From: Flavobacteriales bacterium
GTDB lineage: Bacteria; Bacteroidota; Bacteroidia; UBA10329
Direction of reading: 5' to 3'
Length of the DNA: 64,000 bases
Assembly: GCA_021741075.1 (NCBI GenBank)
Contig: JAIOYO010000004.1
Span: 23,908-87,907, forward strand
The notes beneath the pieces were generated by a model that did no database searches, was not told where the DNA came from, and saw nothing but the letters and a program-made list of their open reading frames with translations. Every line of letters starts with the position of its first letter. Position 1 is the first letter of the stretch. A program made the position numbers and the translations under genes. Of this stretch, positions 16,342 through 52,967 are shown piece after piece.

Positions 16342-16381
16342 CCAAGTTGTCCGTTTGTTTCCCTGAGGAACGAAGGGTCTC
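16304..16381. mobile_element. MITE/REP-like palindromic element, copy A (78 bp)
   Basis: Terminal inverted repeats GAGACGCTTCGTTCCTCAG / CTGAGGAACGAAGGGTCTC (18/19). Its reverse complement closely matches copy B at 17865-17941. Confidence 0.8.
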
Positions 16382-16445
16382 CATTTCCTTGGGAAGTCTG
16401 TGGAAAGTTGAGAATCTACTTTAAGCATGTCTTCACTCGTGTGTT

Positions 16446-39505: not shown

Positions 39506-39552
39506 GCTTCAAATATGCAGAGTTTATTGCACAGATTTTATTTGGAGAACGC

Positions 39553-39567
39553 GAGATGCACAGAGAA
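39553..39567. repeat. solo CACAGAG-type repeat arm
   Basis: GAGATGCACAGAGAA, same core (ATGCACAGAG) as the arm at 1946-1955. No partner arm was seen nearby. Confidence 0.5.
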
Positions 39568-39606
39568 AAGGCTTCGGTAATAAATATCTATCTGAATCTC
39601 CGATTC

Positions 39607-40140
39607 TCAACTTTCACTCTGGGTAAAAGCAGAAACTGCCTCGATGGCGTTTGTCAATCGATTATTTCCTTGTCCTCTAATTATGCGATAGTCGGCTCCA
39701 ATCGTTTTTAACGCCATTTCGTACAGCTCAAAAAGTTGCACTAGGTCATTTGGATTTTGGCGCAATGGGTCTGGCTTCCATTCCAAATCCGGAAAAGTGA
39801 GCAAATAATTGCGTGGCTGTTGCTGCTCGAAAAGTTTTTCAATTTCCTGGTTTCGCTTTCTGTATTTGAATTGCTGCCAAATGAGAATTACCAAAATGTC
39901 AGTATCGCAGAATACGGGGCCATTTGCATCAGCAATGGTTCTGTTCTCAAGTTCAAGTTGGCTTTTGGCAATAATCATCAGGTCGTTTTGGTGATAAATG
40001 CCTTTTCTAGCAGTCAGATATTCTCGCGAAAATTCAGGAACGACAACTCCATTAAAATGCGTTGCCAGCTGATTGCAAAGCGTGGTCTTACCTGTACTTT
40101 CTGGGCCTACGATTGCAAAAATTTCCTTTCCTTCTTCCAT
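39607..40140 (-). CDS. NadR C-terminal-domain-like ATPase (ribosylnicotinamide kinase-like)
   Basis: Walker A GPESTGKTT, VPEFSREYL, and CDTD. Overlaps pnuC by 34 nt. Confidence 0.7.
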   Translation of the reverse strand: MEEGKEIFAIVGPESTGKTTLCNQLATHFNGVVVPEFSREYLTARKGIYHQNDLMIIAKSQLELENRTIADANGPVFCDTDILVILIWQQFKYRKRNQEIEKLFEQQQPRNYLLTFPDLEWKPDPLRQNPNDLVQLFELYEMALKTIGADYRIIRGQGNNRLTNAIEAVSAFTQSES

Positions 40141-40694
40141 TCTTTGTGCCAGCTCAAAAATCCGAACACTGCAAGGATAGTGTACAAGAAGTAAAGTCCT
40201 GCGCTTGGCTCTAATCCTCGACTCCAGTAGAGGTAAATGTTGACGGCATCAATCACAATCCAGTAAATCCAATTGGAAAGGATTTTGCGAGTAACCATAA
40301 AAGTGGCGATGAGACTGAAAGAGGTGGTAAATGCATCTAAATACGGCATGGCAGAATCGAATATTAACTCAAAGCTTTTTCCTAGTACTCCAGCAGTGAC
40401 TAATCCGAGAAGGATGATGCGAACATGGAGAGATGTGTTCCATTCGGCAATTTTGAGAAGTTCATCTTTTCGCCTTCCAAAAGTCCATTGCCACCAACCA
40501 TAAACGGCCATTATTACATAGAAAAGGCTGATGAAGGATTCGCCAATGAGGTTGGCCGAAAACGTGAGATACACGTAAATTCCAGAACTGATGAAGGCTG
40601 GATACCAACACCAAATACTTTCTCTAGCGGCAAGAATTACGTAAAGCAAGGCCAAAATGATGGCCGCGTATTCCAAACTGGAATTCAAGTCCAT
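40107..40694 (-). CDS. pnuC: PnuC-family vitamin (nicotinamide riboside-type) transporter
   Basis: 195 aa, 7 TM helices, AVYGWWQW motif. The substrate cannot be read from the sequence. Confidence 0.75.
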   Translation of the reverse strand: MDLNSSLEYAAIILALLYVILAARESIWCWYPAFISSGIYVYLTFSANLIGESFISLFYVIMAVYGWWQWTFGRRKDELLKIAEWNTSLHVRIILLGLVTAGVLGKSFELIFDSAMPYLDAFTTSFSLIATFMVTRKILSNWIYWIVIDAVNIYLYWSRGLEPSAGLYFLYTILAVFGFLSWHKEWKKERKFLQS

Positions 40695-40960
40695 TGGCTC
40701 GTATTCCAGCGGTTGGGCGGAAGATGGCTGTTTATGATCTTAGAAACTGCGGCAATTGGAGTGCCTGATTCCATCGAAGGTTTTAATGCTTGCATGTAAG
40801 CCGACATTACTGCGTCATATTCTCCAAAAACTTGGGTGCTTACTCCGTTAGTCAGGACTTCGATGTTCTCAAACTTATTCAATCTTCGAAGGAAATCCTT
40901 TACAGCTTCTTTGTATCCATCGGTCAATGGATACATCGTTATTTCGAGGGTGACTTTCAT
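40685..40960 (-). CDS. MTH1187/YkoF-like (DUF77) small thiamine-binding-type protein
   Basis: 91 aa. MKVTLEITMYPL...STQVFGEYDAVM fits the DUF77 beta-alpha-beta pattern. Moderate assignment. Confidence 0.45.
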   Translation of the reverse strand: MKVTLEITMYPLTDGYKEAVKDFLRRLNKFENIEVLTNGVSTQVFGEYDAVMSAYMQALKPSMESGTPIAAVSKIINSHLPPNRWNTSQWT

Positions 40961-40962
40961 CG

Positions 40963-41694
40963 TTAGAATTTGGCACTTGCCAATTCTTGAAGTAGCGAAC
41001 CGTCTTTTTCGATGGCATTTCCAACAACAACTACCGTTGCGCCTGCTTCAAAACGTTCACGAGCCATTTCTGGTGTTTTTAATCCACCGCCAACAATTAT
41101 AGGAACATCAACGTGGTCAGAAACGCGCTTAATCATGCTTGTAGAAACCGCGTTTTGCGCTCCCGAACCTCCATCCATAAAAATGGTTTTTAGTCCAAGC
41201 ATTTCTCCAGCCATTGCTGTACAAGCAGCAATGTCATCCTTATCGTGAGGCAATGGATTGGTATTGCTCATGTAAGAAGCGGTAGTTGGTCTTCCGCTAT
41301 CAATAAGCATATAGCCAGTAGGAATAATTTCCAATCCTGAGTTTTTCAGTCTTGGTGCTGCAACTACATGCTTGCCAATCAACATTTCGGCATTTCTTCC
41401 CGAAATGACCGATAAAAGAAGAATGGCATCAGCATTGGGAACCACCTGCATATTGTCTCCAGGAAAAAGCACCACAGGAATATCGCAGTTAGTCTTAATA
41501 ATCTGAACACAGTCGAAAAGCGAGTTGCTCACGAGTAAACTTCCACCCACAAAAAACATGTCTACACCAGCATTTTGTGCTGAAATAACGGTTCGTTCCA
41601 ACTCATTTCCGCCTGTTTTGTCAGGGTCTATAAGTAGAGAAAACAACTTGCGTTGTTCCTGTTTAGCTTGATGTAGATGGTTTAGTACGTTCAT
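40963..41694 (-). CDS. geranylgeranylglyceryl phosphate synthase family protein (PcrB/GGGPS)
   Basis: LIDPDK, MFFVGGS, VLFPG, IIVGGGLKTPEMA; 243 aa. Confidence 0.8.
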   Translation of the reverse strand: MNVLNHLHQAKQEQRKLFSLLIDPDKTGGNELERTVISAQNAGVDMFFVGGSLLVSNSLFDCVQIIKTNCDIPVVLFPGDNMQVVPNADAILLLSVISGRNAEMLIGKHVVAAPRLKNSGLEIIPTGYMLIDSGRPTTASYMSNTNPLPHDKDDIAACTAMAGEMLGLKTIFMDGGSGAQNAVSTSMIKRVSDHVDVPIIVGGGLKTPEMARERFEAGATVVVVGNAIEKDGSLLQELASAKF

Positions 41695-41934
41695 CTTTCG
41701 CGGTGCAAACTTAACGAATGAACGTGGTTTAATGTCTTTTTTGGTCGATGAATTGATGCACTACCTAAAACTTTCAACCTGATAGGATCCTCGGTTTAAT
41801 TGCAGCAACCATCTTTTCATAACCCCGTTTATAAAACTGGTCGAATGGTGCACTGATTGATTTGCATAACCTACAACCAATGCCGAACTTGCACCCCGCA
41901 TTTGAAATCAAATGAAATTAAAGTAGAGACACAG

Positions 41935-44900
41935 TTGAATCTAACTTACAAGGCATCCCTTTTTTTTGTTGCTCTTTTGCTTCCCTTCATCGGTTTCGGA
42001 CAAAGTTGCACGGGACTCGGAAGTCAACAATTCTCAGATGTTATACATGTTTCCGTATCAGGAACATCAAGCAGTACTGGAACCGCTGCTGATCCTGTGG
42101 ATCTTTTAACAGGAATAGCCATGCTTGGCGGAAATGCCGACAAGGTTTATTTACAAGGAGGAACATATGTTTTGACTGCTCCTTTGGTCATACCCAATAA
42201 TGCACAATTGATTGGAGGATTCAATGCTAGTTGGGTTAAGGACAATGGGGCAGTTTCTACATTATTTAGAGACCCAGCCAATCCTCAAATGGGTCCGCCA
42301 AGGCTAATAGCGGTTGAATGTATTGGGAAATCGAATTTCAGACTTCAAGATCTCACCATCCGAACTTCCAATGCCTTAGGCCAGGGCGTTTCTGCGTATG
42401 GCGTCTATCTCAATAATTGCTCTGATTATCAGTTGGTGAGATGTAAAATTATCGCTGGTAACGGTGGAAACGGTGTGCCAGGATCACCTGGTGGTTCTGG
42501 TCCGGCAGGAGCCATTGGTGACAACGGACAACCAGGAGAGGAAGATTCAAGTGGAAACAATCAAGGTGGAGCAGGCGCTTGCTGTTCATTTCCAGGAAGT
42601 AACCGCGGGGGAGATGGTGGAAATGGCGGACAACGCGGAACCTATGAGTTTCCAGCGGGTGGCGAAGCGTTTCCTGGACTTAATGGAGGCGATGGTCAAG
42701 GTCCGACATCTGGCTACGGAGGAACAGGTGGGCAAGAGTTGTTTACCACGGTTATTTCTACACAATGCGATAGAACCCCTGCCAATGATGGCGAATTTGG
42801 GGCCGATGGTGGTAATGGTGTGACCGGATTATCTGGAGTGCCTGGAGCTTACTCTTTTGGTGGTGGCTATTTTACTCCAGGAGCTGGTACTTCTGGTTTA
42901 ATAGGTGGAAATGCTTCTGGAGGTGGAGGCGGAGGCGGAGGCGGTTCGCAAGGAGGAATTGTTTGGATTGCTATTCCAGAGATTCCGCCATTCATTTCGG
43001 CAGATACGATACCGCCTAACAGTAACGGAACTGGTGCCGCAGGAGGCGGAGGTGGAGAAGGTGGAGGCGGAGGCCTTGGCGGAGGTGGAGGCCAAGGAGC
43101 AGGTGGTTCATTCGGAGTTTTTGTTTGGAATAACGGCTTCAATGGAGTGATGAAAGATTGTGAACTTCAATCCGGATTGGCTGGTTTTGGTGGGCCAGGA
43201 GGAGCTGGTGGTAACGGTGGACAAGGTGGGGCTGGAGGCGAAGGTGGATCGTTGTTTACGGCATGCGATATTGGTGCTGGCGGCAGTGGTGGCAGAGGAG
43301 GTGATGGTGGTGATGGAGGTCAAGGTGGGCCAGGTTCTAATGGAATATCCGAAGAATTATACCAGCAGCCGAATGGCCAAGCGATGGTGCTTCAGAATAT
43401 CTATGGATTATCTCAGCCGCTAGTCAATGTGGATTTTGGAGGCTGCACAAACGCGCCAGTTACTTTCTCAACAGATGCTACAGGAACGCTTCAGTGGTTT
43501 TTTGGAGCAGGTTCATCACCTTCAACGGCTTTTGGACAAACAGCAGTTGCCAGTTTCTCAACTCCAGGGTTTAAAACATTTACATTGGTAGTTAACGGAA
43601 TTGCCTTTACCTACACAGATTTTATTGACATTCATGCTGTGGTTCCGGCCTTAGATCCGCAGATACAAACTGGACCAACGCAGCTTTGCGAAGGAGATGT
43701 TGCCGATTTCAATAGCTCCATTTCGGCCAATAATTACATTTGGACATTAAACAACATCGTTGGTGATACGGTAGTTTACAACGGGCCTAGTTATTTCAAT
43801 TTGCTAGGGGTTGCGTTTGATTCAGCAGGCGTTTATCAGTTAACGCTTACTACAGAAACGGAATGTTGCGGGCAATCTTTTACAGATACGATAATGATTG
43901 TGGTGGATTCAATCATTTTGCCTGCAACAGCCATTCAAACCGAATTTGCGGATACGACAAACACTGTTTGCGAGCAGACAGAGGTGACCTTCACAGCAAC
44001 AGCTCAGAATGTAGGCTCTACCCCAACTTACGCATGGCAGATTAACGGAAATCCAGCAGGTGGAAACGCACCTGTTTTTACTACCAATCAGCTTCAAGAT
44101 GGCGATCAGGTTACCCTTGAAGTAACGTCTTCTTTGGGATGTGCAACTGGCGAAGTTGCCATGTCTAATGCGATTACCATCAATGTGATTCCACCACCCG
44201 AGATTACTTGTCAAGCAGACTCTTTTTTATCAAACGAGCCCACTTATTTTCAGGTAGCAGTAACAACAGGTGGATTAGCTCCATTTGAATATTTCTGGTC
44301 CTTTGGTGATGGTTCGTTGGGTTTTGGAGAAACGGTTGAACACATCTATCAAAATGCTGGAGTTTACACGGCAACGGTTAATGTTTTTGATTCTCTTGGA
44401 TGTAATGTTTCATGTCAAACATTTATGACGATTTCGCCAAGTTTGTCTGCGGCATTTGTCGTTGACACGGTAGTTGGCTGTGCACCGTTTGAAGTGCAGT
44501 TTAGCAACTTAAGTCAGAATGCCGTAACTAATTTTTGGGATTTTGGAGACGGGAATTCTTCTACACAAATTAGCCCATTGCACACCTATCAAACAGCTGG
44601 AACCTACGATGTGGCGCTTTGGGTTTATGCTGGAAATGGAAATGATTCGGTGTCAGTGTTCAGTCAAATAGTAGTCAATCCAACCCCAGTTGCAAACTTT
44701 CAGAGTTATGAGTTGAATGCTTCCACCGGTAGCGATTCAGTTCAATTTGCAGACAACTCGTTGTTTGCCGATAGTTGGCTTTGGGATTTTGGCGACCCAG
44801 CTTCAGGAGCCGATAATTCTAGCACTGAGCAAAACCCGTTACACGTATTTCAGTCAAATGGAGTATATAATGTGTCACTTACTGTTTCAAACACGTATGG

Positions 44901-45213
44901 CTGTTCAGGTCAAATTACACTATCGTCACCAGTAAACGTTGGTATCGAAGATTTGACCGCAGATTTGCAGACAATCCTGTTTCCAAATCCAGCAACAGAG
45001 TCAATTGAGATAGTTGTTTTTTCGGAGACAAATCGCACAGCAGAAATTCGAATCGCTGATGTCGTAGGTAGGACAGTTCATTCGCAACAATTGAACTTAA
45101 TTGTCGGAATGAATGGGAATAGATTTGATTTAACGCAACTCGCCACAGGGCCATACGTTCTCACCATGCGTACGGACAGGACTGAACAATCTTTCCTGTT
45201 TATTGTCAAATGA
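41935..45213 (+). CDS. T9SS cargo: beta-helix N-domain, Gly-rich modules, PKD/Ig domains, type-A (Por secretion tail) CTD
   Basis: Likely TTG start at 41935 (NLTYKASLFFVALLLPFIGFGQ signal); the track ORF starts at 41857. DVIHVSVSG...GGTYVL beta-helix cap. GGxGG runs including G9. Three PKD motifs (F/WDFGDG...Y...G.Y.V.L). The C-terminus LFPNPATESIEIVV...GPYVLTMRT...FIVK is a type-A CTD. Confidence 0.8.
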   Translation: MNLTYKASLFFVALLLPFIGFGQSCTGLGSQQFSDVIHVSVSGTSSSTGTAADPVDLLTGIAMLGGNADKVYLQGGTYVLTAPLVIPNNAQLIGGFNASWVKDNGAVSTLFRDPANPQMGPPRLIAVECIGKSNFRLQDLTIRTSNALGQGVSAYGVYLNNCSDYQLVRCKIIAGNGGNGVPGSPGGSGPAGAIGDNGQPGEEDSSGNNQGGAGACCSFPGSNRGGDGGNGGQRGTYEFPAGGEAFPGLNGGDGQGPTSGYGGTGGQELFTTVISTQCDRTPANDGEFGADGGNGVTGLSGVPGAYSFGGGYFTPGAGTSGLIGGNASGGGGGGGGGSQGGIVWIAIPEIPPFISADTIPPNSNGTGAAGGGGGEGGGGGLGGGGGQGAGGSFGVFVWNNGFNGVMKDCELQSGLAGFGGPGGAGGNGGQGGAGGEGGSLFTACDIGAGGSGGRGGDGGDGGQGGPGSNGISEELYQQPNGQAMVLQNIYGLSQPLVNVDFGGCTNAPVTFSTDATGTLQWFFGAGSSPSTAFGQTAVASFSTPGFKTFTLVVNGIAFTYTDFIDIHAVVPALDPQIQTGPTQLCEGDVADFNSSISANNYIWTLNNIVGDTVVYNGPSYFNLLGVAFDSAGVYQLTLTTETECCGQSFTDTIMIVVDSIILPATAIQTEFADTTNTVCEQTEVTFTATAQNVGSTPTYAWQINGNPAGGNAPVFTTNQLQDGDQVTLEVTSSLGCATGEVAMSNAITINVIPPPEITCQADSFLSNEPTYFQVAVTTGGLAPFEYFWSFGDGSLGFGETVEHIYQNAGVYTATVNVFDSLGCNVSCQTFMTISPSLSAAFVVDTVVGCAPFEVQFSNLSQNAVTNFWDFGDGNSSTQISPLHTYQTAGTYDVALWVYAGNGNDSVSVFSQIVVNPTPVANFQSYELNASTGSDSVQFADNSLFADSWLWDFGDPASGADNSSTEQNPLHVFQSNGVYNVSLTVSNTYGCSGQITLSSPVNVGIEDLTADLQTILFPNPATESIEIVVFSETNRTAEIRIADVVGRTVHSQQLNLIVGMNGNRFDLTQLATGPYVLTMRTDRTEQSFLFIVK

Positions 45214-48200
45214 TGATGTCAAAGAAAGGATATGTGTTGATGTTAATTTGGGTGCTGTGCTCGGCATTCGTATCAGCGCAAGAATGCGACATTATCTACG
45301 TAACTCCGAACGGATTAGGAAGCGGAACCCAAGCAGGTCCAACCAATTTCCTGAACGCATTGACGTTAGTTTCTCCTAGTGTAAATCACATCCGAATGGC
45401 GGAGGGCACTTACCCCATTTCAAATACGATTGATTTAATTGGAGGTGTCACCATTGAAGGAGGGTTTGACCCAGTAACTTGGATAAAGTCGAATAATGCA
45501 CCAACACTCATTCATCGCGACAATTCCAACGTTACTCCTGCACCAGATAGGATAGTTGCTATTTCCGCAGTTGGGCTGACTGATTTTCATCTGCATGACC
45601 TTTCTGTGCTTGTTGATGACGCTGGGGGAAATGGAATAACCACATACGGAATACACATTGACGGCTGTTCCAATTATTCGCTAAGTAGGGTTAGGTCCAC
45701 TGCAGGCAATGGCTCGAATGGAATTGATGGAGGACCAGGAATAGACGGTGTTTTTGGAGTAGACGGAGGTATTGGACAAGATGGAAACGACTGTGGAGAT
45801 GGAAACTACGATGGCGGAGTAGGTGGTAGTTCTTGGGGCGGAGGTATTTCGGCAGGAGGAGATGGTGGAGATGGTGGCCCGGAAGGTCGGGAAGCAGATT
45901 TTTGGCCACCTTGGAATATCGACCTCGGAGATGGTTATGCAGGGCAACCAGGTCAAATTGGTTTAGGTCCAAATCCTGGTACTGGTGGACCTGGTGGACC
46001 AGGTTGGAGAAATGCTACGCCAAGTCCGTGTGTTTGGTTAGTTGGATCATGTACAGCTGCACCTAATAATTTTGGTCAGCTTGGTGTTGATGCGGCACCT
46101 CCTGGAGCAGACGGTTTGGATGGAATTGATGGAATTCCTATGCACACTGGAGGCTTTTTTGTACCTGGAGATGGCCTAAATGGCGAAGATGGCGAACATG
46201 GTTCTGGAGGCGGAGGCGGAGGCGGTTGCGGCTCACATGGAGGTGCACTTTTCGGTGATAACGGTTCTGGTCCAGGCGGTGGCGGAGGTGGAGAAGGCGG
46301 TCAAGGTGGGTCTGGCGCTACGGGCGGAACCGGTGGTGGTGGTTCATTCGGACTTTATATTTCGAACAATGGCGCTGGCGGAGTTTTGAATGATTGTGTT
46401 CTCAATTCGGGTCTTCCAGGAATTGGTGGCATTGGCGGCTTTCCAGGCGGATTGGGCGGTCAGGGAGGTCTAGGCGGTTGGGGCGGACAAGGTTGTGGGT
46501 CTGGTGGAAACGGTGGAGATGGTAGCGCAGGTGGCGATGGAGGTAACGGTGGAAATGGTTCTCCCGGAATCAGCCAACCGTTGTACGAAGAACCAACAGG
46601 AATTCAAACTATACAGACCAATTTGGCAGCTAATGTTGAACCAAACATTACGCTTGGCTCTACTGGATGCACCTTTTCTGATATTTACTATTCAACTAAT
46701 TCAAGCGGAATTATTGAATGGTTTTATGAAGGAAGCACAGTTCCGGTAAATACAGTAGGTCAAAGCACGTTGGCTCAATACACAGGAATGGGAGCTTTTG
46801 ACCTAACTATGGTTTCAAATGGAGTGCCTTATTTTCTATCCGAATTTGTAAACATTTTCATTGATGGAACTCCCTATTTACCTACAATTCAAGCGGTAGA
46901 CACGATTTGTCCTGGAGATGTGGTAAACTTCTCAGCTACTTGGCCTATCAGTTTTAACGTTCTAGGATACCGATGGAATTTTGGAGACCCATCAACAGGC
47001 GCGGCCAATACAAGTTCTCAAGGAGCGCCATCACATACATACGCGAATGTGGGTACGTACATGGTGACGCTGCAAACCGAATCCCCTTGCTGTGGTTGGG
47101 CCAAGATTGATACGCATTACGTGGTTGTAATGCCAGTGGTTGAACCAGATGTGTTTATTACAGCAACATCAACAGAAATTTGTGAAGGAGAATCAATCAC
47201 TTTTGGTGCTATTCCTTACGCTGGTGGACCAAGTCCAACATACCAATGGTTTCAGAATGGAGTGAGTGGAGGAACGGGGCCATCGTTTACTCCAAACTTC
47301 ATCAACAATGGCGATCAGATTCGAGTTCGAATGACCAGCTCGTATCCATGTCCTATCACACCAACGGTAAATTCCGAAACCATAACGGTTATTGTTCATC
47401 CCATTCCAGTGGTTGATTGCAGTAACGTAACCGCAAGCTATTTGGGGGCAAACACTGGTTTGAATGCAGCTGTTTCAGTAGGCACAGCCCCTTATGAGTT
47501 TTTCTGGCAATTTGGTGATGGGGGTTCAGATACAACTCAAAATCCAACCCATCTTTATGGAGGAACAGGAGTTTACAATGCAAGCGTAGAAGTGACTGAC
47601 ACTTTTGGATGTTCAATTACATGCGATGTGCCAGTCGATATTGTTCTTCCGCCTTACGTTTATGCTGGATTTCTTATAGACACAGTTGTCACCTGTGGGT
47701 CAACAACAGTAAACTTTACGGATACGAGTTTTGGAAATCCGATTGAATGGTTGTGGGATTTTGGAGATGGCAATCAATCTACTCTTCAGAGTCCGAGCCA
47801 TACTTATACAAGTGGAGGCCCGTACACCATTACACTCACTTCTTCCAACGGAATATTCGCAGACACGTTGGTTGTACCGAATATGATTGAGCCATGGCTT
47901 GTTCCAACCGCTGAGATAATGCTTACCGATTCTACTGCGTGTGATTCCACAGCTATTCGGTTTTATGATAATTCTGTCAATGCGGCCGCTTGGGAGTGGG
48001 ATTTTGGTGATGCCAATTCAGGTGTCGAATCGAATACCAGTAATCTTCAGAATCCATATCACATTTACAATGACTCTGGTTCATACGTAGTCACACTCAC
48101 GGTTTTTTCTGTTGATGGATGTTCATCACAAGCAACGCCAGTAAATATTGAGATTTACGCTTCTCCTGTAGCTGGATTTTGGGTAGATACCAATGTGGTT

Positions 48201-48965
48201 TGTTCTGAATTGCCAATTTTCTTCAATGATACCTCAGAACACGATATAAACATCACCAATTGGTATTACCATTTTAGTGATAAGGACACCATTATTGAAG
48301 TGAATGGTAGCGTGGTTGATGTAATTGAATACACATTTGAGGAGGAAGGATGGTACGTAGTCACACAACACGTAGTCAATCGTATTACGGGTTGTGAAGA
48401 TTCAACTTCTATTTTTATGGAAGTAAGGGCACATCCAGTGGCAGATTTCTATCCAGATAGTGTGGCGCTTCAGTTACCAGACACCACAATGGAATTCTGG
48501 AACACGAGTTACAATGTCGTTCCTGATTCTTCCTATTGGGATTTCGGAAATGGTTACACAGTCGATAATCAATACGATGCCGTGGGAGTTTTCCAAGATT
48601 CGGGATTGTTTGACGTTCAGCTTATTGTGATGAGAGAGATTGGTTGCCCCGATACGCTAGTCATTCCTTATCGAGTTTGGGAGCAGGAGACCTTCTTCAT
48701 TCAAACAGCCTTTACTCCTAATGGAGATGGAACCAACGATGTGTTTGAGATAAAGCAAAAAGGAATCGTTGAGTGGCACTTACAGATTTACGACCGGTGG
48801 GGAAAGCTTCAATGGGAGACATTTGATGTAAACGAGTTTTGGGATGGCACCCAGATGAAAACTGGCAAAGTTTTGCCTCAAGGAGCGTATTCTTATCAGA
48901 TAGATTTGGTTTGGTACACAGGGAAGAGTTTCAACAAAATGGGAACCATTACCATTTTCAGGTAG
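45210..48965 (+). CDS. T9SS cargo, paralogue of the previous gene, with a type-B (gliding-associated) C-terminal sorting domain
   Basis: Signal MMMSKKGYVLMLIWVLCSAFVSAQ. Blocks shared with the upstream protein (TAGNGSNG..., GGSFGLYISNNG...DCVLNSGLPGIGG). PKD motifs. The C-terminus TAFTPNGDGTNDVFEI..IYDRWG..WDGT is a type-B domain. Its start ATG overlaps the upstream TGA (ATGA). Confidence 0.85.
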   Translation: MMMSKKGYVLMLIWVLCSAFVSAQECDIIYVTPNGLGSGTQAGPTNFLNALTLVSPSVNHIRMAEGTYPISNTIDLIGGVTIEGGFDPVTWIKSNNAPTLIHRDNSNVTPAPDRIVAISAVGLTDFHLHDLSVLVDDAGGNGITTYGIHIDGCSNYSLSRVRSTAGNGSNGIDGGPGIDGVFGVDGGIGQDGNDCGDGNYDGGVGGSSWGGGISAGGDGGDGGPEGREADFWPPWNIDLGDGYAGQPGQIGLGPNPGTGGPGGPGWRNATPSPCVWLVGSCTAAPNNFGQLGVDAAPPGADGLDGIDGIPMHTGGFFVPGDGLNGEDGEHGSGGGGGGGCGSHGGALFGDNGSGPGGGGGGEGGQGGSGATGGTGGGGSFGLYISNNGAGGVLNDCVLNSGLPGIGGIGGFPGGLGGQGGLGGWGGQGCGSGGNGGDGSAGGDGGNGGNGSPGISQPLYEEPTGIQTIQTNLAANVEPNITLGSTGCTFSDIYYSTNSSGIIEWFYEGSTVPVNTVGQSTLAQYTGMGAFDLTMVSNGVPYFLSEFVNIFIDGTPYLPTIQAVDTICPGDVVNFSATWPISFNVLGYRWNFGDPSTGAANTSSQGAPSHTYANVGTYMVTLQTESPCCGWAKIDTHYVVVMPVVEPDVFITATSTEICEGESITFGAIPYAGGPSPTYQWFQNGVSGGTGPSFTPNFINNGDQIRVRMTSSYPCPITPTVNSETITVIVHPIPVVDCSNVTASYLGANTGLNAAVSVGTAPYEFFWQFGDGGSDTTQNPTHLYGGTGVYNASVEVTDTFGCSITCDVPVDIVLPPYVYAGFLIDTVVTCGSTTVNFTDTSFGNPIEWLWDFGDGNQSTLQSPSHTYTSGGPYTITLTSSNGIFADTLVVPNMIEPWLVPTAEIMLTDSTACDSTAIRFYDNSVNAAAWEWDFGDANSGVESNTSNLQNPYHIYNDSGSYVVTLTVFSVDGCSSQATPVNIEIYASPVAGFWVDTNVVCSELPIFFNDTSEHDINITNWYYHFSDKDTIIEVNGSVVDVIEYTFEEEGWYVVTQHVVNRITGCEDSTSIFMEVRAHPVADFYPDSVALQLPDTTMEFWNTSYNVVPDSSYWDFGNGYTVDNQYDAVGVFQDSGLFDVQLIVMREIGCPDTLVIPYRVWEQETFFIQTAFTPNGDGTNDVFEIKQKGIVEWHLQIYDRWGKLQWETFDVNEFWDGTQMKTGKVLPQGAYSYQIDLVWYTGKSFNKMGTITIFR

Positions 48966-48972
48966 CCAACTG

Positions 48973-50817
48973 ATGAGGAATTCACTCATCGTATCATTAT
49001 TACTACTTCAAGGATTTTCAAGTTTTGCTCAGCCCGTATTGACGGAAGTTTCCGAATCTATAGGGCTTTCGCATCATGCTGTAATGTGTGATTTTCAGAT
49101 GCCAGCACAAGGCGGTGCTGCATGGTTCGATTACGATAATGATGGTTGGTACGATCTTTACCTCACGGGAGGTAGCGTCCCTGATGCTCTTTTTCGCAAC
49201 AATGGAGATGGAACTTTTACTGATAGAACGGCAGACGCAGGCATCGGTGTAATTGCAAATGTTTTTACAGACGGAGTAACCACTGGCGATGTTAATCGTG
49301 ATGGCTGGGATGATATTCTTGTTACCACATTTAAAACCGCTGGCAACTATCTCTTTTTGAATAACGGTGATGGAACTTTTGCTGTTCAACTTAATTGGGC
49401 TGGAGCAGTAGATTCTGCCAATAGCTTTTCTGCCACGTTTGGCGATCTTAACATGGACGGATGGTTGGATTTATATATCTGTAATTGGTCTCGCTATATG
49501 CAAGTAACTGTTAATGGTGGAAATGTATCAGTCGATTCTGAAGCCAACTATTATTATCAGAATAATGGTGATGGTACGTTTACCGAAAGGGCAGAAGACC
49601 TTGGCTTAGATGATCCATTAGGATGTGGACTTGGTGTAATGATAACCGATTTTGACAACGACTTTGACCCCGATCTATTTGTTGCCAACGACTTCGGGCA
49701 ATTCTATGGCAACAGTCCAAATCGGTTATATAGGAATGATTCTCCACTTGAAAGTTTTGTAGAAGTGAGCAACGATTTCGGACTCGATTCTGAAATAAAT
49801 GGCATGGGGGTGGCTAAAACGGACGTGAACTTTGATGGCGTGTTCGACTATTACACCACCAATATTAGGAACGATAAGTTCATGGTCAGTTCAGTTTCAG
49901 GATATGAAGACGAACTGGTTGACCGTGGAATGAAGAACGACTCCGTATGGCTTCAGAATTTGACTGTTCGACATTGGAATGTAGGTTGGGGTGCAGGTTT
50001 TCTGGACATTGATAACGACATGGACGAAGATTTGATGGTGGCCAACGGCTCGTTGAGATACGATTATCCTTGGCCGGCATTGGATTCGAATAGATTGTTT
50101 TTAAACGATGGAAATGGAGATTTTGTGGATGTTTCGTTTGAAACGGGAATTGCAGATACCTACGTTTCTCGCGCCTTGGCTTATTGTGATTATGATTTGG
50201 ATGGCGATTTAGATGTTTTCGTTGGTATCACCGATTCCATCAATGGAACCTCGCATAGCTTTTTATTTAGGAACGATTCACCTCCGAAAAACTGGTTGCA
50301 AGTAAAAGCTGTTGGAGTTGAGAACAACACAAACGGAATTGGTGCTAAGGTGGTTGTCTATATAAATGGTCAATCTCAAATGCGGGAAATTGGTGGGCAG
50401 AGTAGCTTCAATTCGCAGCATTGGCACGTGGCTCATTTTGGCTTAGGAAACAACTTGCTGGTTGATTCGCTTCAAGTTATATGGTATGGAGGTGGAATTG
50501 ACCGCTATTACCATTTAAACGCTAATCAATTTATGGAAGTAACAGAAGAGCAAGGTTTGATTACTGGTATCGGCAGAGCGAATGAACTTGAATTTCAGGT
50601 TCATCCTAATCCTTTTACCCACGAAATCAACCTAACGGGTTCTCCTGTTGAAAAGCTGGAATTATATGATTCAAAGGGAAGTCTTGTTGTCAGTTCATCA
50701 GTTAAACTTGGTGAAGCAAAGAGAATTGAAACATCTCACTTACCAGCAGGAAATTATCTGCTCAAAATTGAACTAACAGGCGGAGTATCTGTTATGCGTA
50801 AGCTGATAAAGGAATAG
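48973..50817 (+). CDS. T9SS cargo: FG-GAP/VCBS repeat + ASPIC/UnbV (CRTAC1-like) protein with type-A CTD
   Basis: Repeated DYDNDGW.DL / NNGDGTF motifs. UnbV-like NGIGAKVVVYINGQSQMREI. The C-terminus VHPNPFTHEINL...GNYLLKIEL is a type-A CTD. Confidence 0.85.
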   Translation: MRNSLIVSLLLLQGFSSFAQPVLTEVSESIGLSHHAVMCDFQMPAQGGAAWFDYDNDGWYDLYLTGGSVPDALFRNNGDGTFTDRTADAGIGVIANVFTDGVTTGDVNRDGWDDILVTTFKTAGNYLFLNNGDGTFAVQLNWAGAVDSANSFSATFGDLNMDGWLDLYICNWSRYMQVTVNGGNVSVDSEANYYYQNNGDGTFTERAEDLGLDDPLGCGLGVMITDFDNDFDPDLFVANDFGQFYGNSPNRLYRNDSPLESFVEVSNDFGLDSEINGMGVAKTDVNFDGVFDYYTTNIRNDKFMVSSVSGYEDELVDRGMKNDSVWLQNLTVRHWNVGWGAGFLDIDNDMDEDLMVANGSLRYDYPWPALDSNRLFLNDGNGDFVDVSFETGIADTYVSRALAYCDYDLDGDLDVFVGITDSINGTSHSFLFRNDSPPKNWLQVKAVGVENNTNGIGAKVVVYINGQSQMREIGGQSSFNSQHWHVAHFGLGNNLLVDSLQVIWYGGGIDRYYHLNANQFMEVTEEQGLITGIGRANELEFQVHPNPFTHEINLTGSPVEKLELYDSKGSLVVSSSVKLGEAKRIETSHLPAGNYLLKIELTGGVSVMRKLIKE

Positions 50818-50823
50818 GCCGAA

Positions 50824-50854
50824 TTGCCTAAGTCTAAGCTATGGCGTACCTTTG
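50824..50854 (+). promoter_or_regulatory. Bacteroidota-type promoter (TTG-N20-TACCTTTG) for ahcY
   Basis: TACCTTTG at 50847-50854 lies 28 nt before the ATG at 50883. It sits inside the longer track ORF, which argues for the shorter start. Confidence 0.45.
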
Positions 50855-50882
50855 CGGCCGTTTCAATAAGAAAACATATATA

Positions 50883-52196
50883 ATGAGCAATACAACAGAA
50901 CAATTGAAATACAAGGTAAAAGACATCAGCCTCGCGGCTTATGGTAGAAAAGAAATCAAATTGGCTGAGGCAGAAATGCCAGGTCTAATGTCGTTAAGAG
51001 AAGAGTTTGGTGCTAGCAAACCTCTCAAAGGAGCGCGCATTGCAGGATGTCTTCACATGACCATTCAAACAGCAGTTCTCATTGAGACCTTGGTTGAACT
51101 AGGTGCTGATGTTACTTGGTCTTCATGTAATATTTTCTCTACTCAAGATCATGCTGCTGCGGCCATTGCTGCTGCTGGTGTTCCTGTTTTTGCTTGGAAA
51201 GGTTTGAGCGAGAAAGATTTCGATTGGTGTATTGAGCAAACGCTTTTCGCGTTCAAAGACGGTCAGCCGTTGAACATGATTCTAGATGATGGAGGAGATT
51301 TGACCAACATGGTTTTGGATCGTTTTCCTGAATTGGTGAAAGATATTAAAGGAATTTCTGAGGAGACTACAACGGGAGTTCATAGATTGTATGAGCGTGT
51401 GAAAGCTGGAACGCTTCCAATGCCTGCCATCAATATTAACGACTCCGTTACTAAGTCTAAGTTCGATAACAAATACGGTTGTAAAGAGTCGTTGGTAGAT
51501 GCCATCCGAAGAGCAACTGACGTTATGATGGCAGGTAAAGTGGCTGTTGTTGCTGGATACGGAGATGTTGGTAAAGGTTCTGCTGCTTCACTTCGTGGTG
51601 CTGGTGTTCGTGTAATTGTTACTGAGATTGACCCTATTTGTGCGTTGCAAGCTGCCATGGACGGATTTGAGGTTAAGCCAATGTCTTCTGCAATTCCACG
51701 TGCTGATATTGTTGTTACTGCTACAGGAAACAAAGACATTATTAGAGGAGAGCACTTCAAATTGATGCACGACAAAACCATTGTTTGCAACATCGGTCAC
51801 TTCGATAATGAGATTGACATGGCTTGGTTGAACAAGAATTATGGTTCTACAAAAGATGAGATTAAGCCTCAAGTAGATGTTTACAATGTAGATGGAAACG
51901 AGATAATCGTTTTGGCCGAAGGCCGATTGGTGAATCTTGGATGTGCTACAGGTCATCCATCATTTGTAATGTCAAACTCATTCACCAACCAAACATTGGC
52001 GCAATTAGAGCTTTGGACAAATGCGAAGGCGTACAACAATGATGTTTACATGCTACCTAAGCATTTGGATGAGAAAGTTGCTCGTTTGCACTTGGCCAAG
52101 ATTGGTGTGGAGTTAGAAGAACTTACTCCAGAGCAAGCAAAGTACATTGGTGTAACGGTTGAAGGACCATACAAACCGGACTACTACAGATACTAG
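50883..52196 (+). CDS. ahcY: adenosylhomocysteinase
   Basis: [30 protein letters not shown] site [15 protein letters not shown]. Confidence 0.95.
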
Positions 52197-52216
52197 TAGC
52201 ATTATTTTTATGTGAT

Positions 52217-52248
52217 GAAAGCCCCTTTCGAGGGGCTTTCGTTTTTTT
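52217..52248 (+). terminator. rho-independent terminator of ahcY
   Basis: GAAAGCCCCT-TTCG-AGGGGCTTTC (10-bp perfect stem) followed by GTTTTTTT. Confidence 0.85.
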
Positions 52249-52290
52249 GGCAACTACTTTCTTTATTTTGTGACCAATTAGTAAAAGCAG

Positions 52291-52965: not shown

Positions 52966-52967
52966 GC

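What the first reader, a model, noticed from the sequence alone, without database searches (positions are those of the whole stretch)
41857..48965. Tandem giant paralogues with a beta-helix cap and long (GGx)n modules
Two adjacent proteins (about 1093 and 1251 aa) share co-linear blocks:
- DVIHVSVSG..GGTYVL / DIIYVTPNG..EGTYPI
- FRLQDLTIRT..YGVYLNNCSDYQLVRCKIIAGNGGNG / FHLHDLSVLV..YGIHIDGCSNYSLSRVRSTAGNGSNG
- GGSFGVFVWNNG..DCELQSGLAGFGGPGGAGGNGGQGG / GGSFGLYISNNG..DCVLNSGLPGIGGIGGFPGGLGGQGG

Between and after these blocks lie hundreds of residues dominated by GGxGGxG, including an uninterrupted G9 encoded at 42919-42945. PKD/Ig domains follow.

The pattern looks like a right-handed beta-helix whose later rungs are replaced by polyglycine-type repeats. 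That recalls PGRS or polyglycine-II-like modules seen in adhesins, antifreeze proteins and phage receptor-binding proteins. I do not know a characterised Bacteroidota family with this layout. The near-identical GGAGGCGGAGGCGG DNA repeats in both genes are also plausible sites for in-frame slippage or inter-paralogue recombination.
Basis: partly seen in the sequence, partly recalled or inferred. Interest (0 to 1): 0.65.

Follow-up and report, generated by a model that had tools for sequence, protein, structure and literature searches.

The report
Beta-helix plus polyglycine surface protein pair
Two neighbouring genes encode large secreted surface proteins whose tips combine a short beta-helix with strictly conserved glycine-triplet segments that most likely fold into a rare polyglycine-II bundle, and this tip belongs to a large, unnamed family with no known function.

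Summary
Two overlapping genes (41935-45213 and 45210-48965) encode paralogous T9SS cargo proteins. Each has a signal peptide, a ~450-aa Gly-rich head, an Ig/PKD stalk and a CTD (type A in the first, type B in the second).

No Pfam, NCBIfam, PHROG or PDB sequence match covers the head. It is nevertheless a conserved composite domain: a cap profile finds 5,165 cluster representatives, and the Gly module follows the cap in 103 of 105. Relatives also occur in Myxococcota.

AF2 and Foldseek show a right-handed beta-helix cap. The Gly segments have period-3 glycines. Their predicted structure is confident but has neither helix nor strand. Their length does not vary: the G9 run is exactly nine Gly in 11 orthologues although the codons differ. 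Three ~25-residue segments covary as antiparallel neighbours.

The best reading is beta-helix rungs interleaved with a polyglycine-II bundle, displayed on the cell surface as a binding module. The ligand is unknown.

Its slippage/recombination idea is not supported, and the disordered-linker rival is rejected. I class this as a new variant of a known kind, with moderate to high interest.

The parts
41935..45213 (+). Gene A, 1092 aa from TTG 41935 (the ORF is open from 41857). T9SS type-A cargo and the first member of the tandem pair.
41935..42000 (+). Signal peptide of A. The predicted cleavage GFG|QSC leaves an N-terminal Gln, which fits the Bacteroidetes Q-rule.
   Evidence: Sequence. The Q-rule is from the titles and abstracts of PMC5837995 and PMC10653852 listed. 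The cleavage site is inferred.
42001..42456 (+). Cap of A (residues 23-174): a short right-handed parallel beta-helix of DUF1565-like type.
   Evidence: AF2 strands at model residues 17-154 with pLDDT about 86-97. Foldseek matches to beta-helix lyases, tailspikes and DUF1565 proteins. The cap profile finds 5,165 cluster representatives.
42457..43029 (+). Gly region 1 of A (residues 175-365). It holds (G-x-y)9 at 177-201, shorter triplet runs, the G9 run, and an A-specific Pro/Ile-rich insert (about residues 341-362).
   Evidence: pLDDT is 96-66 over the first run and about 52 over the insert.
42919..42945 (+). Uninterrupted G9 run (A residues 329-337). It is exactly nine Gly in all 11 orthologues, with synonymous codon differences.
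43030..43350 (+). Gly module 2 of A (residues 366-472): segment 5 (365-391, nearly all Gly), a beta-helix rung SFGVFVW..VMK..ELQ (392-413), segment 6 (GGx, 414-438), a turn (439-446) and segment 7 (GGx, 447-470).
   Evidence: Alignment A4 has conserved lengths. pLDDT is 84-95 with strands only in the rung. Covariation supports antiparallel pairing of segments 5/6 and 6/7.
43351..44976 (+). Stalk of A: a conserved Ig-like region that matches no Pfam model (residues about 473-700), followed by three PKD domains.
44977..45210 (+). T9SS type A C-terminal sorting domain of A (Por_Secre_tail / TIGR04183).
45210..48965 (+). Gene B, 1251 aa. T9SS type-B cargo and the second member of the pair. Its ATG overlaps the TGA stop of A (ATGA at 45210-45213).
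45279..45704 (+). Cap of B (residues 24-165), after the signal peptide MMMSKKGYVLMLIWVLCSAFVSA|QEC. B keeps the family's near-invariant Glu in the IEGGF motif.
45705..46574 (+). Gly region of B (residues 166-455). Its triplet runs are co-linear with those of A: 168-192 (9 triplets), 354-381 (10), 401-428 (10) and 432-453 (8). It has a G7 run at 46206-46226 and the rung SFGLYIS at 379-400.
46575..48698 (+). Stalk of B: a conserved Ig-like region followed by five PKD domains.
48699..48953 (+). T9SS type B C-terminal domain of B (CHU_C / TIGR04131).
48973..50817 (+). Downstream gene on the same strand: FG-GAP/VCBS repeats, UnbV_ASPIC and a T9SS type A CTD. It is syntenic with the A-B pair in related genomes. 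A functional link is unproven.

Best explanation
[quoted passage not shown] Each has a Sec signal peptide, a head of about 450 aa, a stalk of Ig/PKD domains and a C-terminal sorting domain. A carries the type A domain, which is known to be linked covalently to anionic LPS. B carries the type B domain, which is known to be anchored through PorP/SprF-like proteins. The head therefore sits at the far end of the stalk on the cell surface.

The head is one conserved composite domain. It starts as a short right-handed beta-helix. After the last cap rung the chain leaves as a (G-x-y)9 segment and makes further glycine-triplet segments, including an all-Gly G9. It returns through a nearly all-Gly segment into another beta-helix rung, leaves again as a GGx segment, turns, and comes back as a third GGx segment into the next strand.

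The glycine-triplet segments are extended 3-residue-per-turn (polyglycine-II / polyproline-II) helices packed antiparallel into a bundle. GXY segments would lie at the edge, GGX segments in layers, and all-Gly segments in the core, where no side chain fits.

Shown here: the gene structure, the T9SS signals, the beta-helix cap, the period-3 glycines, the length invariance, the antiparallel covariation, and the obligate coupling of cap and Gly modules.

Inferred: the PGII backbone conformation, surface display, and the function. I take the function to be binding of an extracellular ligand, most likely a glycan or another periodic or flat surface, by the rigid head. The two paralogues would be anchored by two different T9SS routes.
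For: - T9SS cargo: PKD plus Por_Secre_tail in A and PKD plus CHU_C in B. PorP/SprF genes lie 14-130 nt downstream of family genes in 7 related loci, and PorQ lies upstream in 6. Anchoring modes are from PMC9143113 and PMC12618676.
- Operon: ATGA start/stop overlap. The A(type A)|B(type B) order is conserved in L001-L012 and in more distant loci. 25 of 76 loci hold 2-4 tandem members.
- Cap: AF2 pLDDT about 86-97 with stacked strands. Foldseek best hits are all right-handed beta-helices: PL9 lyase 5olr at E=1.4e-3, CBA120 TSP1, and DUF1565 phage proteins at E=2e-5.
- One composite unit: 103 of 105 diverse representatives have the Gly module 35-209 aa after the cap.
- Folded, not linker: Gly lag-3 z=8.5. 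Triplet runs are co-linear in A and B. Segment lengths are conserved across phyla. G9 is invariant in number despite synonymous codon changes. Gly columns are 94-96% identical among orthologues against 66-71% for other columns, and module 2 has no gaps.
- Neither alpha nor beta: segments 5-7 have pLDDT 84-95 and no DSSP element. The isolated module has pLDDT 71 and no DSSP element. Its only two PDB neighbours are snow flea AFP entries 3bog and 2pne.
- Topology: in mfDCA, 11 of the top 50 pairs lie on the segment 5 x segment 6 antiparallel diagonal (1.2 expected, P=2e-8, 0 after swapping segment 6 among sequences). 7 of the top 50 lie on the segment 6 x segment 7 diagonal (P=9e-4). Rung contacts 41-57, 42-52 and 57-120 are also recovered.
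- The scheme of one, two or three Gly faces for edge, layer and core PPII helices follows the review 10.1101/2023.11.25.568672.
Against: - I could not read model coordinates, so PPII phi/psi angles and inter-helix distances were never checked.
- The Foldseek match to snow flea AFP is not significant (E=1.5-2.5, TM about 0.2) and may reflect Gly content alone.
- PGII helices of about 25 residues would be roughly twice as long as those I recall for solved PGII bundles. That comparison rests on my own knowledge and was not checked here. The segments may be kinked or arranged differently.
- pLDDT in Gly region 1 is only 49-87.
- The diagonal windows in the covariation test were chosen after seeing the data. 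The segment 6 x segment 7 signal would be borderline after correction.
- Nothing tested here bears on the ligand. Near-invariant polar residues in the cap (E93, K102, R112, N116, D139, Y155, Y165, R169) would fit an enzyme active site as well as a binding site.
- Orthologues show no hypervariable region, unlike many adhesins and phage receptor-binding proteins.
- No PorP/SprF gene lies in the window next to B.
- Expression is untested.
Confidence: 0.55

Rival explanations
1. The head is a carbohydrate-active enzyme, a polysaccharide lyase, hydrolase or esterase of the beta-helix class. The cap carries the active site, and the Gly bundle is only a structural buttress.
For: All significant structural neighbours of the cap are glycan-cleaving or glycan-binding beta-helices: PL9, PL6, GH136, GH87, CE8 and tailspike depolymerases. 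Eight polar or charged cap residues are 92-100% conserved in 141 diverse representatives. Many T9SS cargos are glycan-degrading enzymes (abstract of PMC11205867).
Against: No CAZyme-related Pfam or NCBIfam model matches, even at E<=10. The cap has only about 5-6 rungs. The Foldseek alignments cover 150-180 columns at TM about 0.2. The A-type subfamily has lost the 96%-conserved Glu yet is itself well conserved. No polysaccharide-utilisation genes are adjacent.
Confidence: 0.2
2. The Gly-rich stretches are intrinsically disordered or elastic linkers (low-complexity spacers) between a beta-helix domain and the PKD stalk.
For: The Gly content is very high (0.36-0.38). Pfam and PDB sequence searches find only artificial GGS linkers. 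Some stretches have pLDDT of about 50-65.
Against: Segment lengths are invariant among orthologues and nearly so across phyla. Gly positions are more conserved than other positions. G9 is fixed at nine residues despite codon turnover. Beta-helix rungs are embedded between the Gly segments. pLDDT is 84-95 in segments 5-7. There is long-range antiparallel covariation.
Confidence: 0.05
3. The (G-x-y)9 runs are collagen-like and drive trimerisation into a triple helix, as in phage fibres and bacterial collagen-like proteins. A and B might form mixed trimers.
For: Run 1 (GVPGSPGGSGPAGAIGDNGQPG) is a perfect G-x-y repeat with 4 Pro, and it is conserved in position. The top BFVD hits include phage proteins annotated 'Collagen triple helix repeat' that also carry a beta-helix.
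Against: The longest runs are 9-10 triplets. There is no Pfam Collagen hit. Pro makes up only 6-7% of the region. Most segments are GGx or all-Gly rather than G-x-y. Covariation indicates intramolecular antiparallel pairing, whereas collagen chains run parallel. The top 'collagen' Foldseek hit has rmsd 67 A.
Confidence: 0.07
4. The repeated Gly codons make these genes a contingency locus. In-frame slippage or A/B recombination would vary repeat length and so vary the surface antigen.
For: Short GGAGGC tandem arrays occur at 42919-42944, 43042-43092 and 46206-46225, and A and B share an identical 20-nt stretch.
Against: There is no length variation in any Gly run among 11 orthologues at 63-92% cap identity. 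Codons within the runs are mixed (GGA, GGT, GGC) and differ between orthologues, which indicates purifying selection on the exact residue number. A and B are only about 31% identical.
Confidence: 0.03

Closest known systems
Snow flea antifreeze protein (sfAFP; PDB 2pne, 3bog), a Gly-rich PPII/PGII helical bundle
   Same: Both have Gly at every third residue in GXX/GGX runs and small polar residues at the x positions. Both have neither alpha nor beta structure, antiparallel neighbouring segments, and disulfide-capable Cys. sfAFP gives the only two PDB Foldseek matches of the isolated module.
   Different: sfAFP is an 81-residue stand-alone arthropod protein. From my own knowledge it has six short helices. 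Here the segments are about 25 residues long, are fused to and interleaved with beta-helix rungs, and sit in 1,100-1,250-aa bacterial surface proteins. No homology is detectable. The structural match is not significant.
Mycobacterial PE_PGRS proteins (the PGRS domain is predicted to be a two-layer PPII bundle)
   Same: Both are surface-exposed bacterial proteins with long GGx repeats that AlphaFold predicts as PPII bundles (PMC13243192, read). NCBI names a Sorangium relative of this family 'PGRS family protein'.
   Different: There is no PE domain and no ESX secretion. GGAGG occurs only twice in A and never in B. Lengths here are strictly conserved, whereas PGRS domains are described as highly polymorphic (PMC10216338 abstract). 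Here the Gly segments are tied to a beta-helix.
Glycine-rich domain of ALK/LTK receptor kinases (honeycomb of PGII helices)
   Same: Uninterrupted poly-Gly stretches (G9, G7, and G5-x repeats) would fit core helices of a multilayer PGII lattice, as described for ALK in 10.1101/2023.11.25.568672.
   Different: ALK and LTK are metazoan cytokine receptors. No Pfam glycine-rich model matches here. The flanking folds differ. This comparison rests on the literature description and was not tested structurally here.
Phage S16 gp38 adhesin (PGII sandwich at the tail-fibre tip)
   Same: In both, a Gly-rich PGII scaffold sits at the distal, ligand-facing end of a long fibre or stalk. This is the functional analogy behind the binding hypothesis. 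gp38 is listed among PGII bundles in 10.1101/2023.11.25.568672.
   Different: No PHROG match and no Foldseek match. From my own knowledge gp38 has hypervariable loops, and I saw no hypervariable region here.
Right-handed parallel beta-helix proteins with a DUF1565-type N-terminus (PL9 rhamnogalacturonan lyase 5olr, CBA120 TSP1, pectin methylesterase, phage DUF1565 proteins)
   Same: The N-terminal motif xIYVxxxGxxxxxGTxxxPxxxxxxAxxxAxxGDxIxxxxGxY is shared. The rungs stack in the AF2 model, and these are the best Foldseek neighbours.
   Different: Only about 5-6 rungs come before the chain departs into Gly segments. No beta-helix Pfam model matches. Known members have no interleaved Gly-triplet segments.
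T9SS cell-surface adhesins of Flavobacteriia/Cytophagia (SprB, RemA, CHU_C proteins)
   Same: They share the signal peptide, the Ig/PKD-type repeats, a type A or type B CTD, and a PorP/SprF gene next to some family members.
   Different: The head domain is unrelated. No gliding or adhesion phenotype is known for this family.

Membership tests
T9SS cargo proteins | N-terminal Sec signal peptide | tested here: met
   Hydrophobic leaders are followed by Gln (GFG|QSC in A, VSA|QEC in B), read from the sequence. No dedicated signal-peptide predictor was available.
T9SS cargo proteins | C-terminal sorting domain matching TIGR04183 (type A) or TIGR04131 (type B) above the curated cut-off | tested here: met
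   A: Por_Secre_tail 40.2 bits (cut-off 27) and TIGR04183 27 bits (cut-off 23). B: CHU_C 57.8 bits (cut-off 27) and TIGR04131 45.2 bits (cut-off 35).
T9SS cargo proteins | Type B cargo has a cognate PorP/SprF-like gene nearby | tested here: not met
   No PorP or PorQ homologue anywhere in the 64-kb window. One is present 14-130 nt downstream of family genes in 7 related loci. This is a frequent feature, not an obligatory one.
T9SS cargo proteins | T9SS-dependent secretion and surface attachment | not testable with these tools
   Needs a secretome or surface proteome of wild type against a T9SS mutant.
Right-handed parallel beta-helix (pectate-lyase-like, DUF1565-type) | Stacked parallel beta-rungs in the structure, with structural similarity to known members | tested here: met
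   AF2 gives strands at model residues 17-154 with pLDDT about 86-97. The later rung 373-393 repeats the strand pattern of the last cap rung 134-154. Foldseek neighbours are exclusively beta-helix proteins, but E is only 1e-3 to 2e-5 and TM about 0.2.
Right-handed parallel beta-helix (pectate-lyase-like, DUF1565-type) | Match to the Pfam Beta_helix, DUF1565, Pectate_lyase_3 or PbH1 models | tested here: not met
   No Pfam family at E<=10 on either N-terminus.
Gly-rich PPII / polyglycine-II helical bundle domains | Runs with Gly at every third position (GXX, GGX or GGG) | tested here: met
   Lag-3/6/9 z=8.5/7.1/4.1 for A and 7.4/5.4/3.2 for B. Seven co-linear runs of 4-10 triplets occur, and none beyond residue 560.
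Gly-rich PPII / polyglycine-II helical bundle domains | Ordered structure without alpha-helix or beta-sheet in those runs | tested here: met
   Segments 5-7 have pLDDT 84-95 and no DSSP element. The isolated module has pLDDT 71 and no DSSP element. This rests on prediction only.
Gly-rich PPII / polyglycine-II helical bundle domains | Backbone phi/psi near -75/+150 and helix-helix spacing of about 4.8-5 A | not testable with these tools
   Model coordinates are not returned. Needs inspection of coordinates, or CD, NMR or crystallography.
Gly-rich PPII / polyglycine-II helical bundle domains | Neighbouring helices packed side by side, mostly antiparallel | tested here: met
   mfDCA antiparallel diagonals: segment 5 x segment 6 has 11 of the top 50 pairs (P=2e-8, lost on the swap control), and segment 6 x segment 7 has 7 of the top 50 (P=9e-4).
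Gly-rich PPII / polyglycine-II helical bundle domains | Significant structural similarity to a solved PGII bundle | tested here: inconclusive
   The only PDB hits of the isolated module are sfAFP 3bog and 2pne, but E=1.5 and 2.5, prob 0.04, TM about 0.2.
PE_PGRS | N-terminal PE domain and tandem GGAGGX repeats | tested here: not met
   There is no PE domain; the N-terminus is a beta-helix. GGAGG occurs twice in A and not at all in B.
Collagen-like triple helix | Long uninterrupted (G-X-Y)n, Pro-rich, matching Pfam Collagen | tested here: not met
   The maximum is 9-10 triplets, Pro is 6-7% of the region, and there is no Pfam Collagen hit at E<=10.
RTX calcium-binding beta-roll | Tandem GGxGxDxUx nonapeptides | tested here: not met
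   No match in A and a single isolated match in B.
DUF3494 / IBP-1 bacterial ice-binding proteins | Match to the DUF3494 Pfam model | tested here: not met
   No such hit in the Pfam scans.

The most novel reading that the evidence does not exclude
The head is a previously undescribed protein architecture. Successive rungs of a right-handed beta-helix would act as the connectors of a multilayer polyglycine-II bundle. That bundle would be built from unusually long (about 25-residue) antiparallel helices and would include a buried all-glycine core helix, the invariant G9. This rigid, flat, side-chain-poor blade would be displayed on bacterial surfaces, by T9SS in Bacteroidota and by other routes in Myxococcota, to bind a periodic surface such as ice, crystalline polysaccharide or mineral. 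It would be the first large bacterial PGII family outside mycobacteria, and the first with strict length conservation.
Probability: 0.35. Interest if true: 0.8.

Novelty: new variant of a known kind. Interest (0 to 1): 0.6.

Why it matters
Folded glycine-rich PPII/PGII bundles are known from only a handful of protein classes: springtail antifreeze proteins, Obg, acetophenone carboxylase, a phage adhesin and ALK/LTK, with PE_PGRS known from prediction only. They are of interest for protein design (10.1101/2023.11.25.568672).

This finding adds a large bacterial family that no domain model covers. The cap profile finds 5,165 cluster representatives at E<=1e-3. In this family PGII-type segments are fused to a beta-helix and are under strict length and Gly conservation.

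The family offers several uses:
- a natural series for studying what stabilises long PGII helices;
- a candidate domain model for Pfam or NCBIfam, which would replace 'hypothetical' or 'PKD domain-containing' annotations on thousands of T9SS and myxobacterial surface proteins;
- a tractable target for finding what these abundant environmental Bacteroidota bind at their surface.

It also shows that poly-Gly coding repeats are not necessarily hypermutable contingency sites.

Tried and rejected
- Sequence searches of the head against Pfam, NCBIfam and PHROGs (including E<=10) found nothing. Searches against PDB sequences, by single sequence and by profile, returned only chance matches and artificial GGS linkers.
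- Foldseek of the whole head was dominated by the cap. It gave no PGII neighbour in PDB or BFVD.
- Foldseek of the isolated Gly module gave only two non-significant sfAFP hits.
A narrower alignment worked, but it used the single pattern [ND]FRLQDLTI. The 102 loci are therefore a biased subset of Bacteroidota.
- Promoter and terminator scans and a search for the Bacteroidetes -7 motif TAnnTTTG gave nothing informative upstream of A.
- Plain mutual information was dominated by subfamily markers and was replaced by mean-field DCA with controls.
- A census of neighbouring genes across loci found mostly lineage-specific synteny with housekeeping genes. The exceptions were PorP/SprF, PorQ and the FG-GAP/ASPIC gene.
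- Considered and rejected on motif or model tests: RTX beta-roll, collagen triple helix, PE_PGRS membership, DUF3494 ice-binding protein.
- Rejected on comparative data: contingency-locus slippage and disordered linker.
- The other giant T9SS protein in the window (12808-16494, minus strand) is not a member of this family.

Full report
**1. The observation**

Two long ORFs lie on the plus strand at 41857-45213 and 45210-48965. The first has no in-frame ATG near its 5' end. An in-frame TTG at 41935 gives a 1092-aa protein that starts with a typical leader, MNLTYKASLFFVALLLPFIGFG|QSC. The second protein (1251 aa) starts with an ATG that overlaps the first gene's TGA stop (ATGA at 45210-45213), so the pair looks translationally coupled.

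BLASTP with composition adjustment aligns the N-termini at 31% identity over 317 residues, E=4e-25. The second Gly module of A matches B at E=1.5e-19. Glycine makes up 36-38% of residues from about 165 to 500 and falls to background afterwards. The G9 run is encoded exactly at 42919-42945.

**2. Domain layout**

Pfam and NCBIfam recognise only the C-terminal halves. A has three PKD domains and a T9SS type A sorting domain (Por_Secre_tail, TIGR04183). B has five PKD domains and a type B domain (CHU_C, TIGR04131).

Nothing matches the first 450-500 residues of either protein in any of these searches:
- Pfam, NCBIfam or PHROGs, even at E<=10;
- PDB sequences, where a profile search finds only engineered GGS linkers.

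Both leaders end just before a Gln, as expected from the Bacteroidetes 'Q-rule' (PMC5837995 and PMC10653852, listed).

**3. The head is a conserved family, not low-complexity noise**

A search with the head of A returned 115 proteins. Almost all are unnamed or called 'hypothetical' or 'PKD domain-containing', and a Sorangium one is called 'PGRS family protein'.

The alignment shows a fixed order:
- a Cys right after the leader;
- an xIYVTxxG...GT..DP....A...A..GD.IR...GTY motif;
- IEGGF, W.K, FRLQDLTI;
- a rung S.YG.HL.NCS.Y..VRC...GN;
- a (G-x-x) run of about nine triplets;
- more Gly-rich sequence ending in a poly-Gly run;
- the module G.G.GGGGGGGGG.GG.GG.GG.GGGGSFG.YL.NN.....I....I..G.GG.GG.GG.GG.GG.GG.GG.G...E.G.GG.GG.GG.GG.GG.GG.G..G.S..I.

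A profile of the cap alone finds 5,165 cluster representatives at E<=1e-3 among 1.84 billion (927 at 1e-10, 242 at 1e-30). They range from 155 to 5,362 residues, with the cap either N-terminal or at about residues 550-720. In 103 of the 105 representatives that are long enough, the Gly module follows the cap within 35-209 residues. Cap and Gly segments therefore form one composite unit.

The same cap-plus-module order occurs in proteins named by NCBI as from Myxococcaceae, Kofleriaceae, Sorangium and Bradymonas. These have cap-profile E values of 1e-10 to 1e-21 and several rung-plus-GGx units. They lack T9SS domains.

**4. Genomic distribution**

A pattern scan of species-representative genomes, which is biased by the single motif used, returned 102 loci. 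All are Bacteroidota MAGs: Flavobacteriales including Crocinitomicaceae and Cryomorphaceae relatives, Chitinophagales, Saprospiraceae and Sphingobacteriales. The closest is a Flavobacteriales MAG with 92% cap identity.

The order A-like (type A CTD, about 1,100 aa), then B-like (type B CTD, about 1,250 aa), then an FG-GAP/ASPIC gene is conserved in the ten closest loci that reach far enough. More distant genomes have two to four tandem paralogues. In all, 25 of 76 loci carry at least two.

In seven loci a PorP/SprF gene follows the family gene by 14-130 nt, and PorQ lies upstream in six. This fits what is known of type B cargo anchoring (PMC9143113, PMC12618676). The window itself has no PorP/SprF gene. 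The exact B protein is otherwise found only on one 7-kb metagenome contig.

**5. Structure of the cap**

AlphaFold2 on the 503-residue head of A with a 31-sequence alignment gave mean pLDDT 79.5 and pTM 0.67. The cap (model residues about 17-154) has pLDDT of about 86-97 and a series of short strands.

Foldseek against the PDB returns only right-handed parallel beta-helix proteins: PL9 rhamnogalacturonan lyase 5olr at E=1.4e-3, phage CBA120 TSP1, GH136, PL6, pectin methylesterase and PfbA. Against BFVD it returns DUF1565 and right-handed beta-helix phage proteins down to E=2e-5. The alignments are only 150-250 columns long with TM about 0.2, so only the cap is matched.

The later strands at model residues 373-379, 386-388 and 391-393 (A392-412, SFGVFVW..VMK..ELQ) repeat the pattern of the last cap rung at 134-141, 147-149 and 152-154 (SAYGVYLN..QLV..KII). 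The beta-helix therefore resumes after about 220 residues of Gly-rich sequence. The rungs are interleaved with the Gly segments, not replaced by them.

**6. Nature of the Gly segments**

Five independent lines argue for a folded structure with three residues per turn.

(a) Periodicity. Glycine autocorrelation peaks only at lags 3, 6, 9 and 12, with z up to 8.5 against shuffles. Uninterrupted triplet runs are co-linear in the two paralogues:

| | Run 1 | Short runs | Segment 5 | Segment 6 | Segment 7 |
|---|---|---|---|---|---|
| A | 177-201 | 226-235, 286-304, 331-340 | 367-394 | 414-438 | 447-470 |
| B | 168-192 | 217-226, 299-308, 322-344 | 354-381 | 401-428 | 432-453 |

No such run occurs in the rest of either protein. 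There is no RTX nonapeptide array.

(b) Length conservation. In a 46-sequence alignment spanning several phyla, the three segments of module 2 have almost no indels and about 40 Gly columns are at least 90% conserved. Among 11 orthologues of A there are no gap cells in module 2. 92 of 117 glycines are invariant. Gly columns are 94-96% identical against 66-71% for other columns.

(c) Selection on number. The G9 run is nine residues in every orthologue, while its codons differ (GGA, GGT, GGC, GGG) from genome to genome.

(d) Prediction. Segments 5-7 have pLDDT 84-95 and the first (G-x-y) run has 96-66, yet DSSP assigns neither helix nor strand. The isolated 121-residue module, modelled with 46 sequences, has pLDDT 71 and no DSSP element at all. 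Its only two Foldseek hits among 350,542 PDB chains are the snow flea antifreeze protein entries 3bog and 2pne. These hits are not significant (E=1.5 and 2.5).

(e) Covariation. I ran mean-field DCA on 315 module sequences (effective number 263).
- It recovers contacts within the rung (profile columns 41-57 and 42-52) and contacts from the rung to the next strand (57-120 and 59-119).
- It shows two antiparallel diagonals. For segment 5 x segment 6 (i+j=100-104), 11 of the top 50 pairs fall on the diagonal against 1.2 expected (P=2e-8). This drops to 0 when segment 6 is swapped among sequences, and the best unrelated window holds 3 pairs.
- For segment 6 x segment 7 (i+j=175-180), 7 of the top 50 pairs fall on the diagonal against 1.6 expected (P=9e-4) (mapping to residues).
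- The windows were chosen after seeing the data. The second signal is therefore modest and the first remains strong.

Extended segments that pair antiparallel over about 25 residues, have period-3 rather than period-2 sequence, and lack beta-ladders in the model are what a polyglycine-II/PPII bundle would give.

The three kinds of run also match the published scheme. One Gly face (GXY) suits edge helices, two Gly faces (GGX) suit layers, and all-Gly suits a core helix surrounded on all sides (10.1101/2023.11.25.568672). This would explain why the G9 run tolerates neither substitution nor length change.

I could not inspect model coordinates. The PPII backbone geometry itself therefore remains an inference.

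**7. How it probably works**

A and B are exported by Sec and translocated by the T9SS. By analogy with characterised cargos, they are then retained on the cell surface: A through its type A domain and B through its type B domain. The C-terminus is the anchored end, so the Ig/PKD stalk holds the head outwards.

The head is rigid, rich in disulfide-capable Cys, and evenly conserved among orthologues. Cap, Gly region and PKD region are each about 55-92% identical, with no hypervariable stretch. I take it to be a ligand-binding module, most likely for a glycan or another periodic surface. Three things point that way: its cap belongs to the glycan-associated beta-helix class; PGII bundles in sfAFP and phage gp38 serve surface recognition; and the family expands in tandem arrays.

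This functional step is inference only.

The main rival is that the cap is catalytic. Eight polar residues (E93, K102, R112, N116, D139, Y155, Y165, R169 in A numbering) are 92-100% conserved in 141 diverse representatives.

A-type proteins have Ile or Leu in place of the 96%-conserved Glu, while B keeps it. The two paralogues are therefore not equivalent.

**8. What is rejected**

- Disordered or elastic linker: rejected by items (b) to (e) in section 6.
- Slippage or recombination hot spot: rejected by the invariant lengths and mixed codons. A and B share only a 20-nt Gly-codon stretch.
- Collagen-type trimerisation is unlikely: runs are short, Pro content is low, there is no Collagen model hit, and covariation indicates antiparallel intramolecular pairing.
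- RTX, PE_PGRS and DUF3494 membership fail their defining features.

**9. Comparison and novelty**

In mechanism the Gly part resembles known PGII bundles: sfAFP, ALK/LTK, gp38 and the predicted PGRS fold. The cap resembles DUF1565-type beta-helices. The whole protein resembles T9SS adhesins.

It is not a demonstrable member of any named family. No domain model covers the head, and three full-text searches found no paper describing it.

The fusion of a beta-helix with interleaved, length-invariant, long Gly-triplet segments appears to be new. So does its wide distribution in Bacteroidota and Myxococcota.

I classify it as a new variant of a known kind: a surface protein with a PGII-type module. 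Interest is 0.6. About one chance in three remains that it is a distinct architecture with a surface-binding role, which would deserve more.

Noticed in passing
window 42229-42243 (A residues 99-103 region) and the IEGGF motif: A residues 91-96 = 42205-42222; B residues 80-85 = 45447-45464: A-type proteins (the window copy and all 10 orthologues) have Ile or Leu (xLIGGFN / xIIGGFN) where 96% of 141 diverse family members, including B, have Glu (IEGGF). A-type proteins also carry a 9-residue insertion after the N-terminal Cys. The two paralogues of the conserved pair may therefore differ in ligand or activity.
   Followed up: partly
window 43351-44034 (A residues 473-700) and 46575-47429 (B residues 456-740): The region between the Gly head and the Pfam-recognised PKD domains has no significant Pfam hit. 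The only match is a sub-threshold Ig_7 hit in B. Yet it is the most conserved part of both proteins among orthologues (69-98% identity). It is probably one or two unmodelled Ig-like domains.
   Followed up: partly
window 42955-43020 (A residues 341-362): A-type proteins carry a Pro/Ile-rich insert (IVWIAIPEIPPFISADTIPPNS) between the G9 run and the next Gly segment. Most of the family has a Q.C.FC.DG motif there. The insert has low pLDDT (about 52) but is conserved among the A orthologues.
   Followed up: no
window 48973-50817: The downstream gene encodes FG-GAP/VCBS repeats, UnbV_ASPIC and a T9SS type A CTD (CRTAC1-like). It follows the A-B pair in L001, L002, L004, L008, L010 and on the Logan contig L081. 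Whether it works together with A and B is unknown.
   Followed up: partly
window 12808-16494 (minus strand): This is another giant T9SS type B cargo (1228 aa; PKD, SprB repeat, CHU_C, many Cys-containing Ig-like repeats). It is not a member of the Gly-rich family (10% Gly, no cap).
   Followed up: partly
L053:11729-12832, L046:11830-12861, L038/L039/L042/L043/L061; PorQ at L042:2315-3397 and others: In seven related loci a PorP/SprF family gene lies 14-130 nt downstream of a type-B family member, and PorQ lies upstream in six. The window has neither gene.
   Followed up: yes
proteins P0127-P0262 (e.g. P0174 5362 aa, P0163 4813 aa); loci L046, L054, L057, L060, L063-L067, L071-L080: A sub-group of the family has the cap at about residues 470-850 (mostly 550-720) of much longer proteins, so an N-terminal extension of roughly 550 aa of unknown nature precedes the head. 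One protein (P0144) has three caps.
   Followed up: no
window 45210-45213: The start of B (ATG) overlaps the stop of A (TGA) as ATGA, and B begins with three consecutive ATG codons. This suggests translational coupling of the pair.
   Followed up: yes
window 38117-41694 (minus strand) and 50841-54272: The flanking genes are ordinary housekeeping genes. Upstream lie an SCFA transporter, an AAA_28 NadR-like protein, a PnuC-type NMN transporter and PcrB. Downstream lie AdoHcy hydrolase, DUF4290 and MurA. The gene pair is not inside a polysaccharide-utilisation locus or a mobile element. GC content rises locally to 0.48 because of the Gly codons.
   Followed up: yes
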